Of a stretch of DNA of 64,000 nt, positions 36,814-37,477 are shown piece by piece (position 1 is the stretch's first letter; each line of letters starts with the position of its first letter). The DNA is from Patescibacteria group bacterium (lineage in GTDB: Bacteria > Patescibacteriota > UBA1384 > 2-12-FULL-50-11), in assembly GCA_016861245.1 (NCBI GenBank), contig BOKZ01000001.1:280962-344961 (forward strand). The letters run 5' to 3'. The position numbers were made by a program, and so were the translations under genes. The notes under the pieces are model-generated. The model had not been told where the DNA came from and ran no database searches. It saw nothing but the letters and a program-made list of their open reading frames with translations.

Positions 36814-36925
36814 TCATTATATAAGGTACCTGCATATGGTACCGCAAACCTGTTATGACAGCAAGGATTGCCTTTACACTTCTATCTGTTGTCCGTTACA
36901 GTAATAAAGATATAAGGAGGGGAAA

Positions 36926-37477
36926 ATTCAGACGCTAAAAATTGGTATTTCCGGCTCGGCGGTAGATATATGTTTTCCTGGCGCTGCTGATAAATGCCGA
37001 CAAATGGGTAAATACATCGCTAAACAAGGCGCTGTTTTAGTAACTGGTGACACAACCGGGATGCCGTACGAAGCAGCCAAAGGCGCAAAAGCCGCCGGTG
37101 GATTCACCGTAGGAATTTCTCCTGCGATTTCGTACGTCGAACACGTCCGCAAGTACCAGCTTCCGCATCGCTACACCGATTTTGTAATGTACACCGGCTT
37201 TGGTTACTCCGGTCGAAACTTGCTGTTTGTTCGCTCGACCGACGCGATGATTTTCGTCTGCGGTCGGATCGGCACATTAAACGAGTTTACGATCGCCTTC
37301 GAAGATAAGAAACCGATCGGTGTGTTAACAGAGACTGGTGGAATTACCGAGGAAATTGACCACTTACTTACGGTCGCGAAGCGCGGTCGTAAGAATATCG
37401 TTCTCGATCACGACCCGAAGCGGTTAGTCGAAAAGGTGATGGCGATGGCCAAGGAGAGCTTGAAGGGTCGAGATTAA
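36926..37477 (+). CDS. LOG/TIGR00725-family Rossmann protein; no in-frame ATG/GTG/TTG upstream, probable AUU start.
   Basis: The conserved N-terminal KIGISGSA motif lies upstream of the first ATG (37004). The frame is open back to a stop at 36905 and contains only ATT (36926) 5 nt after a perfect AAGGAGG SD (36914-36920). Confidence 0.55.
   Translation: MQTLKIGISGSAVDICFPGAADKCRQMGKYIAKQGAVLVTGDTTGMPYEAAKGAKAAGGFTVGISPAISYVEHVRKYQLPHRYTDFVMYTGFGYSGRNLLFVRSTDAMIFVCGRIGTLNEFTIAFEDKKPIGVLTETGGITEEIDHLLTVAKRGRKNIVLDHDPKRLVEKVMAMAKESLKGRD

What the first reader, a model, noticed from the sequence alone, without database searches (positions are those of the whole stretch)
36905..37477. LOG-family gene lacking any canonical start codon; probable AUU initiation behind a perfect AAGGAGG
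The conserved family N-terminus (KIGISGSA, the GGS nucleotide-binding loop) is encoded upstream of the first ATG. Between the in-frame stop at 36905 and that ATG there is no ATG, GTG or TTG. The only plausible initiator is ATT at 36926, which lies 5 nt after a consensus SD.

AUU starts are rare; infC is the classic case, where the AUU start is autoregulatory. Alternatives are a sequencing frameshift or translation error.
Basis: seen in the sequence. Interest (0 to 1): 0.55.

Follow-up and report, generated by a model that had tools for sequence, protein, structure and literature searches.

The report
Conserved AUU start on SLOG gene
A small nucleotide-binding-fold gene in this Patescibacteria (CPR) genome almost certainly starts translation at the rare codon AUU behind a perfect ribosome-binding site, and about 20 related species keep the same arrangement, so it is a real, conserved example of a known but uncommon way of holding down protein output.

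Summary
TAA lies at 36905, AAGGAGG at 36914-36920 and ATT at 36926, with no in-frame ATG/GTG/TTG before ATG 37004. The Pfam domain (PF18306, SLOG cluster 4) is complete only if translation starts at the ATT.

The ATT is not an error. Eighteen distinct orthologous loci from other Patescibacteria assemblies (65-97 % aa identity) carry ATT, ATA or ATC at the same codon. In each, GGAGG lies 4-5 nt upstream and there is no usable canonical start. In three of them the in-frame stop lies inside the SD.

Codon-periodic conservation begins at that codon: pN/pS is 0.29 downstream and 1.0 upstream. Four orthologues have ATG at the same codon, and all four lack the strong SD. One pair is 93.5 % identical: GGGAGGG+ATT versus GAGAAGGG+ATG.

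Most of the 59 ORFs surveyed in the window have no SD, and no other has an SD-backed ATT/ATA/ATC/CTG upstream of its first canonical start. The feature is therefore gene-specific.

Best reading: an SD-anchored weak start codon sets low, possibly IF3-sensitive, output of a conserved SLOG/beta-CASP gene pair. This is the infC/pcnB/ebpA/cvfC1/ccpN type, so a new member of a known kind.

The protein is not a bona fide LOG. Its nearest solved structures are Moco-carrier proteins and TM1055.

The parts
36873..36878 (+). -35-like hexamer TTTACA of the predicted promoter
   Evidence: Promoter scan gives TTTACA-18 nt-TACAGT. The same TTTACA at an 18-nt spacer is found in L164, L161 and L162. The promoter is inferred, not shown.
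36897..36902 (+). -10-like hexamer TACAGT. It implies a transcript start near 36909 and a leader of about 17 nt that holds little more than the SD.
   Evidence: A TAnnnT hexamer lies 7-13 nt upstream of GGAGG in 18 of 18 ATH loci, against 25 % of control windows. Homology with sister strain L001 begins at 36895.
36905..36907 (+). In-frame TAA that closes the reading frame upstream. It probably lies upstream of the transcript start.
   Evidence: The position of this stop varies from 3 to 74 codons upstream of the ATH in relatives, so nothing upstream is constrained.
36914..36920 (+). Shine-Dalgarno sequence AAGGAGG, 5 nt before the start codon
   Evidence: The GGAGG core is invariant or nearly so (1.2-2.0 bits per position) in 18 ATH loci. 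Only four predicted starts in the window have a full AAGGAGG at usable spacing, and 38 of 59 ORFs have no SD before their first canonical start. The SD and AUU are unpaired in the predicted mRNA fold.
36926..36928 (+). ATT, the proposed initiation codon (read as fMet)
   Evidence: The homologous codon is ATT in 13 distinct loci, ATA in 4, ATC in 1 and ATG in 4. It is never any other codon within the clade, except in L009 and L084, whose starts are displaced. Three-base periodic conservation starts here.
36926..37477 (+). Coding sequence of the SLOG cluster 4 protein: 183 aa plus the stop codon
   Evidence: PF18306 scores 120.4 bits over profile positions 2-148 of 151. The AF2 model has pLDDT 86. 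Top fold matches are Moco-binding/carrier proteins, TM1055 and then LOGs.
36938..36961 (+). Codons for KIGISGSA: strand beta-1 and the start of the glycine/serine-rich loop
   Evidence: K5, G7, S9, G10 and A12 are invariant in alignment A1. The region following the ATH (codons 2-13) has pN/pS 0.29, against 1.0 upstream and 1.2-1.9 in the other two frames. Beta-1 covers residues 5-10 in the model.
37004..37006 (+). First canonical start (ATG, Met27). It is an internal methionine, not the start.
   Evidence: It sits inside helix 1 (residues 20-33). It is not conserved: L, V or I in most relatives. It has no SD.
37475..37479 (+). TAATG stop/start overlap with the downstream gene, which suggests translational coupling
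   Evidence: The same gene pair overlaps by 1-23 nt in L164, L167, L168, L169 and L170, and lies 5 nt apart in L162.
37477..38838 (+). Downstream beta-CASP / metallo-beta-lactamase / RMMBL nuclease gene (453 aa), a conserved partner
   Evidence: Pfam Beta-Casp 127.7 bits, plus Lactamase_B and RMMBL. Adjacency is conserved in L164, L165, L167, L168, L169 and L170.

Best explanation
Translation of this SLOG cluster 4 gene begins at AUU 36926. A short mRNA leader of about 17 nt carries a perfect AAGGAGG five bases upstream. This holds the 30S subunit so that initiator tRNA reads the near-cognate AUU as fMet, giving a 183-residue protein with an intact first strand and glycine-rich loop.

The weak codon acts as a built-in attenuator and the unusually strong SD offsets it. 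Output is therefore set low and probably depends on IF3 and the state of the initiation machinery. The overlapping downstream beta-CASP nuclease gene probably inherits this setting through translational coupling.

Shown here: there is no canonical start; the N-terminus is translated and under purifying selection; and ATH plus GGAGG is conserved across a clade, with ATG appearing only where the SD is weak.

Inferred: the promoter and transcript start, the reduced output, IF3 sensitivity, coupling to the downstream gene, and insertion of fMet.
For: 1. No in-frame ATG/GTG/TTG lies between TAA 36905 and ATG 37004.

2. PF18306 aligns from profile position 2 only with the ATT start. In the AF2 model, beta-1 is residues 5-10 and Met27 lies inside helix 1.

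3. Eighteen distinct loci at 65-97 % aa identity, from separate assemblies, have ATT, ATA or ATC at the homologous codon. GGAGG lies 4-5 nt upstream. Thirteen have no canonical start before the conserved block, and in the other five the only ones are badly placed or lack an SD.

4. In L161, L085 and L165/166 the in-frame stop is embedded in the SD (TAAGGAGG or TAGGAGG). Only three SD-overlapping codons lie between the stop and the ATH.

5. Third-position variability starts at the ATH. pN/pS is 0.29 for codons 2-13, 1.0 upstream and 1.2-1.9 off-frame.

6. Four orthologues have ATG at the same codon, and none of them has GGAGG. L002 (GGGAGGG+ATT) and L171 (GAGAAGGG+ATG) are 93.5 % identical with alignable leaders. 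L013 (ATT) and L014 (ATG) are 95.7 % identical. By my own arithmetic, 18/18 against 0/4 gives Fisher p of about 1.4e-4, without phylogenetic correction.

7. The third base of the start codon has drifted among T, A and C while neighbouring synonymous sites are near saturation (pS 0.67). G never co-occurs with a strong SD.

8. In the window, 38 of 59 ORFs have no SD before their first canonical start, and only four predicted starts have a full AAGGAGG at usable spacing. This is the only SD-backed ATT/ATA/ATC/CTG upstream of a first canonical start.

9. A conserved promoter-like -10 lies 7-13 nt upstream of the SD in 18 of 18 loci, so the transcript has no room for an upstream start.

10. The SD and AUU are unpaired, and the fold is no more stable than shuffled sequence.

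11. There is precedent. S. aureus cvfC1 (AUU), ccpN (AUA) and infC (AUA) all have extended SDs, and the cvfC1, ccpN and citZ non-canonical start sites gave roughly 10 % of the AUG reporter level (PMC13009471). E. faecalis ebpA starts at ATT (PMC4447247). Start-codon/SD compensation is reported in PMC5622118.
Against: - There is no direct evidence of initiation: no proteomics, ribosome profiling or reporter data.
- The anti-SD of this organism's 16S rRNA is not in the window. SD function is inferred from four other AAGGAGG+ATG starts.
- Because most genes here lack an SD, the absence of an SD before ATG 37004 does not by itself exclude it.
- Three relatives (L161, L162/163, L082) also have TTG three codons after the ATT, which could serve there, although it lies 13-14 nt from the SD.
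- The number of independent ATH/ATG switches rests on a simple NJ tree.
- The attenuation and IF3-sensing step is by analogy only.
Confidence: 0.82

Rival explanations
1. Translation starts at the first canonical codon, ATG 37004 (Met27), giving a 157-aa protein. The upstream in-frame conservation would be a relic.
For: It is the only canonical start. Gene callers choose it or even later codons in relatives (P0005, P0001 and others). Most genes in this genome have no SD, so the lack of one is not disqualifying.
Against: - Met27 is not conserved in relatives.
- The 12 codons after the ATH show purifying selection in 18 loci that lack any canonical start.
- Starting at Met27 removes beta-1, the invariant K5/G7/S9/G10/A12 block and half of helix 1.
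- The perfect SD and its conservation would be unexplained.
Confidence: 0.04
2. Initiation occurs at a different nearby codon: another in-frame ATT/ATA (36941, 36947, 36968) or, in some relatives, the TTG directly before the conserved Lys.
For: Several in-frame ATH codons exist. L161, L162/163 and L082 have TTG at K-1, and gene callers use it (P0003, P0004).
Against: - In the window that codon is CTA, and it is CTC or ATC in most relatives.
- The other ATH codons lie 20 nt or more from the SD.
- Only the K-4 codon is restricted to ATN in all clade members, and it is ATG in four of them.
- The TTG lies 13-14 nt from the SD, against 4-5 nt for the ATT.
Confidence: 0.06
3. Sequencing or assembly error, or a decaying pseudogene that has lost its ATG.
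For: The source is a metagenome-assembled genome and raw reads were not available. A single T-to-G change would create ATG.
Against: - The same state is found in the window, in the 97 %-identical strain L001, in L164 and in 15 further distinct loci from unrelated assemblies.
- The reading frame is intact and under purifying selection.
- The SD is conserved.
Confidence: 0.01
4. The N-terminus is supplied from an upstream start through frameshifting, read-through or re-initiation.
For: None specific. This is a formal possibility for ORFs that lack a start.
Against: - No ATG/GTG/TTG occurs in any frame between the predicted -10 box and the ATT.
- The upstream neighbour is a tRNA gene on the opposite strand.
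- The in-frame stop sits inside the SD in three relatives.
- There is no conservation upstream of the SD.
Confidence: 0.01

Closest known systems
S. aureus cvfC1 (AUU), ccpN (AUA) and infC (AUA): conserved non-canonical starts behind extended SD motifs (PMC13009471)
   Same: An AUU/AUA start is conserved across species and is always paired with a strong or extended SD at short spacing. The ORF is mis-annotated by standard callers. The weak codon lowers output: the cvfC1, ccpN and citZ non-canonical sites gave roughly 10 % of the AUG level in reporters.
   Different: The phylum differs (Patescibacteria) and the gene is unrelated. The host genome here is mostly SD-less, so the SD stands out more. 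Natural reversions to ATG accompanied by SD loss are seen here. There is no experimental mapping.
E. coli infC (IF3) AUU start, autoregulatory
   Same: A near-cognate AUU serves as the conserved initiator. Initiation at such codons is discriminated against by IF3, so output should fall as IF3 rises.
   Different: The product here is not an initiation factor, so there is no autoregulatory loop. Any IF3 dependence would be a read-out, not feedback. This was not tested.
E. coli pcnB (AUU) and E. faecalis ebpA (ATT; PMC4447247)
   Same: A rare ATT start keeps the level of a protein low. In ebpA the annotated downstream ATG (120 bp away) is not the real start, which matches the situation here (78 bp).
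   Different: Those cases concern single species or genera. Here the state persists down to about 65 % protein identity and alternates with ATG plus a weak SD.
Start codon / SD compensation (Belinky, Rogozin and Koonin 2017, PMC5622118)
   Same: Weaker start codons are associated with stronger, better conserved SDs.
   Different: That study covered ATG, GTG and UUG statistically and could not resolve coupled switches. This family offers explicit coupled ATH/ATG and SD changes within one orthologous group.
Protein: Moco carrier/binding proteins (2iz5, 6y01), TM1055 (1rcu); LOG phosphoribohydrolases
   Same: The fold is the Rossmann-like SLOG fold. Foldseek gives TM 0.75-0.80 and 24-27 % identity to MCP and TM1055. 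The best sequence hits are 1rcu, 6y01 and 2iz5.
   Different: LOG proper is only a distant relative: PF03641 is below its cut-off and the equivalog NF058542 scores 25 against 300 bits. Ligand and activity are unknown. The conserved pairing with a beta-CASP nuclease is not a feature of MCP or LOG as far as I know (my own knowledge).

Membership tests
Conserved non-AUG (AUU/AUA/AUC) initiation sites with a strong SD (infC / pcnB / ebpA / cvfC1 / ccpN type) | No usable canonical start upstream of a conserved, selected N-terminal coding region | tested here: met
   There is no ATG/GTG/TTG between the stop and the conserved block in the window and in 12 further distinct ATH loci. pN/pS is 0.29 after the ATH.
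Conserved non-AUG (AUU/AUA/AUC) initiation sites with a strong SD (infC / pcnB / ebpA / cvfC1 / ccpN type) | A near-cognate AUH codon at functional spacing from a strong SD | tested here: met
   AAGGAGG, then 5 nt, then ATT. GGAGG lies 4-5 nt upstream in all 18 ATH loci.
Conserved non-AUG (AUU/AUA/AUC) initiation sites with a strong SD (infC / pcnB / ebpA / cvfC1 / ccpN type) | Conservation of the non-canonical codon across species | tested here: met
   ATT x13, ATA x4, ATC x1 and ATG x4 at the homologous codon among distinct loci.
Conserved non-AUG (AUU/AUA/AUC) initiation sites with a strong SD (infC / pcnB / ebpA / cvfC1 / ccpN type) | Experimentally demonstrated initiation at the codon and reduced output relative to AUG | not testable with these tools
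   This needs proteomics, ribosome profiling or reporter assays.
infC-type autoregulation | The gene product itself controls discrimination against its own AUU start | not testable with these tools
   The product is a SLOG-fold protein, not IF3, so membership is unlikely on first principles.
LOG family (PF03641; cytokinin riboside 5'-monophosphate phosphoribohydrolase) | Score above the Pfam gathering threshold or the NCBIfam equivalog cut-off | tested here: not met
   PF03641 scores 20.7 bits against 27. NF058542 scores 25.3 against 300, and TIGR00730 scores 31.9 against 96.
LOG family (PF03641; cytokinin riboside 5'-monophosphate phosphoribohydrolase) | Catalytic motif PGGxGTxxE (motif recalled from my own knowledge) | tested here: inconclusive
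   The sequence has CGRIGTLNE, so the G-x-x-G-T-x-x-E part is kept but P and the second G are replaced (read by eye).
SLOG cluster 4 (Pfam PF18306, LDcluster4) | Score above the gathering threshold over the full domain | tested here: met
   120.4 bits against 26.3, covering profile positions 2-148 of 151.
TIGR00725 (NCBIfam hypothetical equivalog) | Score above the curated cut-off | tested here: not met
   80.4 bits against 106.9. This is a related subfamily, not an equivalog member.
Molybdenum cofactor carrier/binding protein (MCP) | Structural similarity to solved MCPs | tested here: met
   Foldseek against 6y01 gives E 2e-11 and TM 0.77-0.88. Against 2iz5 it gives E 1e-9.
Molybdenum cofactor carrier/binding protein (MCP) | Binds Moco | not testable with these tools
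   Identity is only 25-27 %. No Moco genes were noted beside the gene.

The most novel reading that the evidence does not exclude
The ATH-plus-strong-SD arrangement may be more than a fixed low-output setting. It could be a translational rheostat that couples the SLOG/beta-CASP nuclease operon to the state of the initiation machinery (IF3 level, initiator tRNA). This would operate in a lineage whose putative initiator tRNA is itself atypical: A1:U72, and only two of the three conserved anticodon-stem G:C pairs. If so, reduced-genome CPR bacteria would be using start-codon fidelity as a regulatory input, and the repeated ATG-plus-weak-SD reversions would mark lineages that gave up this control.
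Probability: 0.15. Interest if true: 0.55.

Novelty: new member of a known kind. Interest (0 to 1): 0.4.

Why it matters
1. Annotation. Of the 120 closest database proteins, 27 are N-terminally truncated calls that lack the first strand and loop. Others are over-extended through the SD ('KEGxI...'). Anyone modelling or expressing this family from database entries would often get a broken protein.

2. Evolution. Within one orthologous group the family provides a natural series of coupled changes: ATH with GGAGG versus ATG with a weak SD, including pairs 93-96 % identical. This is the type of evidence that genome-wide statistics on start-codon/SD compensation could not resolve (PMC5622118).

3. 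Phylogenetic range. It extends conserved AUH initiation to Patescibacteria, whose genomes here are largely SD-less, and it flags a conserved SLOG/beta-CASP gene pair whose dosage seems to matter.

Tried and rejected
- Bare motif statistics in the window. GGAGG-N3-7-ATH is not enriched, so the motif alone proves nothing.
- A structured leader or riboswitch. The fold is no more stable than shuffled sequence (z = 0.25), the SD is unpaired and there is no Rfam hit in the leader.
- A genome-wide habit of ATT starts. No other case was found among the 59 window ORFs surveyed. Only this window was surveyed.
- A family-wide trait. It is confined to the clade at 65 % identity or above: 20 of about 159 distinct loci. 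More distant Paceibacteria-type members use an ATG 10-15 codons upstream, with an N-terminal extension ..[YH]LKYKIC...
- Literature searches for PF18306/TIGR00725/LDcluster4, and for AUU starts in Patescibacteria, returned nothing relevant.
- My first regex screen caught only 18 of 80 loci and was replaced by alignment-based mapping.

Full report
**The observation**

- An in-frame TAA lies at 36905-36907, followed by AGA TAT AAG GAG GGG AAA.
- ATT lies at 36926.
- The frame then reads QTLKIGISGSAVDICFPGAADKCRQ before the first canonical start, ATG 37004. The ORF listing begins the ORF there (157 aa).
- AAGGAGG occupies 36914-36920, five bases before the ATT.
- The stop is TAA at 37475-37477.

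**What the gene is**

Pfam places the protein in PF18306 (SLOG cluster 4, 'LDcluster4') with 120 bits. With the ATT start the match runs from profile position 2. With the ATG start it begins at position 24.

The LOG family proper (PF03641) scores below its threshold. The NCBIfam LOG equivalog scores 25 bits against 300. TIGR00725 reaches 80 bits against a cut-off of 107.

The closest solved relatives by sequence are TM1055 (1rcu), a cyanobacterial Moco-binding protein (6y01) and the Chlamydomonas Moco carrier protein (2iz5). LOG enzymes appear only at E around 1e-4.

An AlphaFold model built on alignment A1 (pLDDT 86) has beta-1 at residues 5-10 and helix 1 at residues 20-33, so Met27 lies inside helix 1. 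Foldseek ranks the Moco-binding and carrier proteins first, then LOGs and TM1055. 'LOG-family' is therefore right only at the superfamily level.

**Source**

The window matches MAG 'bacterium isolate DTUPAT3' (JAJTYJ010000001.1; L001) at 97 % nucleotide identity, with a 100 % identical protein. It is therefore a close strain of that Patescibacteria genome. The nearest relatives are labelled Berkelbacteria, 'Saccharibacteria' or Patescibacteria group. These are record titles only.

**Comparative test of the start codon**

Database proteins already hinted at a problem. Of the 120 best hits, 27 lack the N-terminal block (for example 'MVTGDTTG...' and 'MCFPG...'). Others read through 'KEGxI', which is the SD followed by ATH.

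I fetched DNA for 171 related loci from genome and metagenome collections and by exact-protein look-up. I then mapped the codon homologous to ATT 36926.

In the clade at 65 % identity or above, that codon is:

| Codon | Loci |
|---|---|
| ATT | window/L001, L164, L161, L162/163, L002, L006, L082, L007, L083, L008/086, L004, L165/166, L013 |
| ATA | L170, L003, L005, L085 |
| ATC | L169 |
| ATG | L171, L081/167, L168, L014 |

- L084 has ATC two codons further upstream, behind GGGAGGG.
- All 18 distinct ATH loci have GGAGG 4-5 nt upstream.
- Thirteen of them have no canonical start at all between the upstream stop and the conserved block.
- In L161, L085 and L165/166 the in-frame stop is part of the SD (TAAGGAGG or TAGGAGG), so nothing upstream of the ATH can be translated in frame.
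- P0017, the public Berkelbacteria protein 'MQHVKIG...', is in fact encoded from ATT. At least one deposited annotation therefore already uses this start.

**Selection**

Across the 18 ATH loci, per-site conservation shows only the SD upstream (GGAGG, 1.2-2.0 bits). From the ATH onward there is a clear pattern of positions 1 and 2 conserved and position 3 free.

| Region | pN/pS |
|---|---|
| Codons 2-13, in frame | 0.29 |
| In-frame triplets upstream of the SD | 1.01 |
| Codons 2-13, the other two frames | 1.16 and 1.93 |

The N-terminal segment is therefore translated in genomes that offer no canonical start for it.

**Coupling with the SD**

The four ATG orthologues have at most a 4-mer SD or none.

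- L002 (gagGGAGGGaaaATT) and L171 (gagAAGGGtgacATG) are 93.5 % identical in protein, and their leaders align.
- L013 (ATT, GGGGAGGG) and L014 (ATG, GGAG at 10 nt) are 95.7 % identical.
- On an NJ tree, ATH with a strong SD is the widespread state. ATG appears in at least three places. This tree is only indicative.
- The third base of the start codon has drifted among T, A and C, while neighbouring synonymous sites are near saturation (pS 0.67). G is found only where the SD is weak.

This pattern fits stabilising selection on output and selection against the ATG-plus-strong-SD combination.

**Is this gene-specific?**

- In the window, 38 of 59 ORFs surveyed have no recognisable SD before their first canonical start.
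- Only four predicted starts have a full AAGGAGG at usable spacing.
- ATT 36926 is the only SD-backed ATT/ATA/ATC/CTG upstream of a first canonical start.
- The bare motif GGAGG-N3-7-ATH is not enriched.
- Across about 159 distinct family loci, the arrangement is confined to this clade. More distant members have ordinary ATG, GTG or TTG starts.

**Leader**

A promoter-like TTTACA-18-TACAGT ends at 36902. A TAnnnT hexamer lies 7-13 nt upstream of GGAGG in 18 of 18 ATH loci, against 25 % of control windows. This predicts a leader of roughly 17 nt that holds little more than the SD.

The in-frame stop at 36905 is probably not even transcribed. The leader has no significant structure, and the SD and AUU are unpaired. 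No Rfam family matches it.

**Context**

The stop overlaps the ATG of a beta-CASP/MBL/RMMBL nuclease gene (TAATG). The pair is conserved and usually overlapping in relatives, which suggests translational coupling. This is an inference.

Upstream, on the other strand, lies a tRNA-Asn gene (see 'Things noticed in passing').

**Mechanism and comparison with known cases**

The best-supported reading is SD-anchored initiation at AUU by initiator tRNA, with the weak codon lowering output and the strong SD compensating. This is the same kind of feature as:

- E. coli infC and pcnB (AUU);
- E. faecalis ebpA (ATT; PMC4447247);
- S. aureus cvfC1 (AUU), ccpN (AUA) and infC (AUA).

All three S. aureus sites have extended SDs, and the cvfC1, ccpN and citZ non-canonical sites gave roughly 10 % of the AUG reporter level (PMC13009471). 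Compensation between start-codon strength and SD strength has been reported statistically (PMC5622118).

Autoregulation of the infC type is not expected, because the product is not IF3. IF3 sensitivity is plausible but untested.

**Verdict**

This is a new, well-conserved member of a known kind, with practical consequences for annotation and a neat natural series of start-codon/SD co-variation.

My confidence that ATT 36926 is the start is about 0.8-0.85. The regulatory meaning is much less certain.

**Things noticed in passing**

- **Split tRNA-Asn.** The tRNA-Asn(GUU) gene next door is split by a 517-nt group I intron carrying an HNH ORF. In-silico splicing restores exactly the intact tRNA of the sister strain.
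- **Strain-variable island.** The window differs from L001 by a 5.1-kb island that ends at the -10 box of this gene.
- **Atypical initiator tRNA.** The putative initiator tRNA (50110-50181) has A1:U72 and only two of the three conserved anticodon-stem G:C pairs (background in PMC5389676).

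Noticed in passing
window 36222-36813 (- strand): The tRNA-Asn(GUU) gene is split between anticodon bases U35 and U36 by a 517-nt group I intron (36779-36263; Rfam RF00028, 69.9 bits, at 36270-36540). The intron carries an HNH-like ORF of about 110 aa (ATG 36738 to stop 36407). ARAGORN misses the gene. In-silico splicing gives a tRNA identical to the uninterrupted tRNA-Asn of sister strain L001. L162 also has the intact gene at this position.
   Followed up: yes
window 31751-36895: This is a strain-variable 5.1-kb segment relative to the 97 %-identical genome L001, which has about 1.2 kb here. 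It holds an 888-aa ORF (-), a 486-aa sigma-70-like ORF (+) and the intron-bearing tRNA. Collinearity resumes at 36895, right at the predicted -10 box of the SLOG gene, so the -35 region differs between the strains.
   Followed up: partly
window 50110-50181 (-) and 44582-44656 (-): Of the two tRNA(CAU) genes, 50110-50181 looks like the initiator: it has an AGCGGGG acceptor and A11:U24. However, it has A1:U72 instead of C1xA72 and only two of the three conserved anticodon-stem G:C pairs (U29:A41, G30:C40, G31:C39). The other gene has G1:C72, an A31.G39 mismatch and a T-loop AUCGUUC. This may be relevant to tolerance of AUH starts, but that was not tested (PMC5389676).
   Followed up: partly
whole window (59 ORFs surveyed): Thirty-eight of 59 ORFs have no recognisable SD before their first canonical start. 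Only a handful have a perfect AAGGAGG 3-5 nt before the start (28658 -, 41930 +, 47370 + and the ATT gene); the start at 52171 + has AAGGAGG only 2 nt upstream. The genome is largely SD-independent, with a few strongly SD-led genes.
   Followed up: partly
window 37477-38838 and loci L164, L165, L167-L170: The SLOG cluster 4 gene and the beta-CASP/MBL/RMMBL nuclease gene form a conserved pair, usually with overlapping stop and start. In several loci the pair is followed by a small CsoR-like (Trns_repr_metal) gene. The function of the pair is unknown.
   Followed up: partly
database proteins P0001-P0120: Of the 120 closest database entries, 27 are N-terminally truncated gene calls that start inside the domain, for example at the GTG of 'VVTGDTTG'. 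A further set is over-extended through the SD ('KEGxI'). P0017, a GenBank Berkelbacteria entry, is annotated from the ATT with M.
   Followed up: yes
loci L023-L080 and L087-L160 (distant family members): Paceibacteria-, Sungbacteria- and Uhrbacteria-type homologues carry a conserved N-terminal extension of about 10-15 residues (..[YH]-L-K-Y-K-I-C-V-S-G..) that starts at an ordinary ATG. The Leu codon there is often CTN or TTA, so it is not the start. A few loci (L012, L052, L033, L058, L063, L075) have their nearest canonical start 30 or more codons upstream and were not resolved.
   Followed up: partly
window 47202-47322 (+): There is an Rfam LOOT RNA match (RF03000, 65 bits) directly upstream of a 188-aa ORF (47370) that has a perfect AAGGAGG 3 nt before its ATG.
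   Followed up: no
window 41572-41645 (-): A tRNA-Ile with anticodon UAU is present. It decodes AUA directly, which implies there is no need for a lysidine-modified tRNA-Ile(CAU).
   Followed up: no
locus L084 (Ga0172371_10001917), about 18 nt upstream of the KIGISG block: In this orthologue the probable start is ATC two codons further upstream (GGGAGGG-aaa-ATC GGT GAA GAG AAA CTG AAA). The SD-plus-ATH arrangement is kept although the exact codon position moved.
   Followed up: partly
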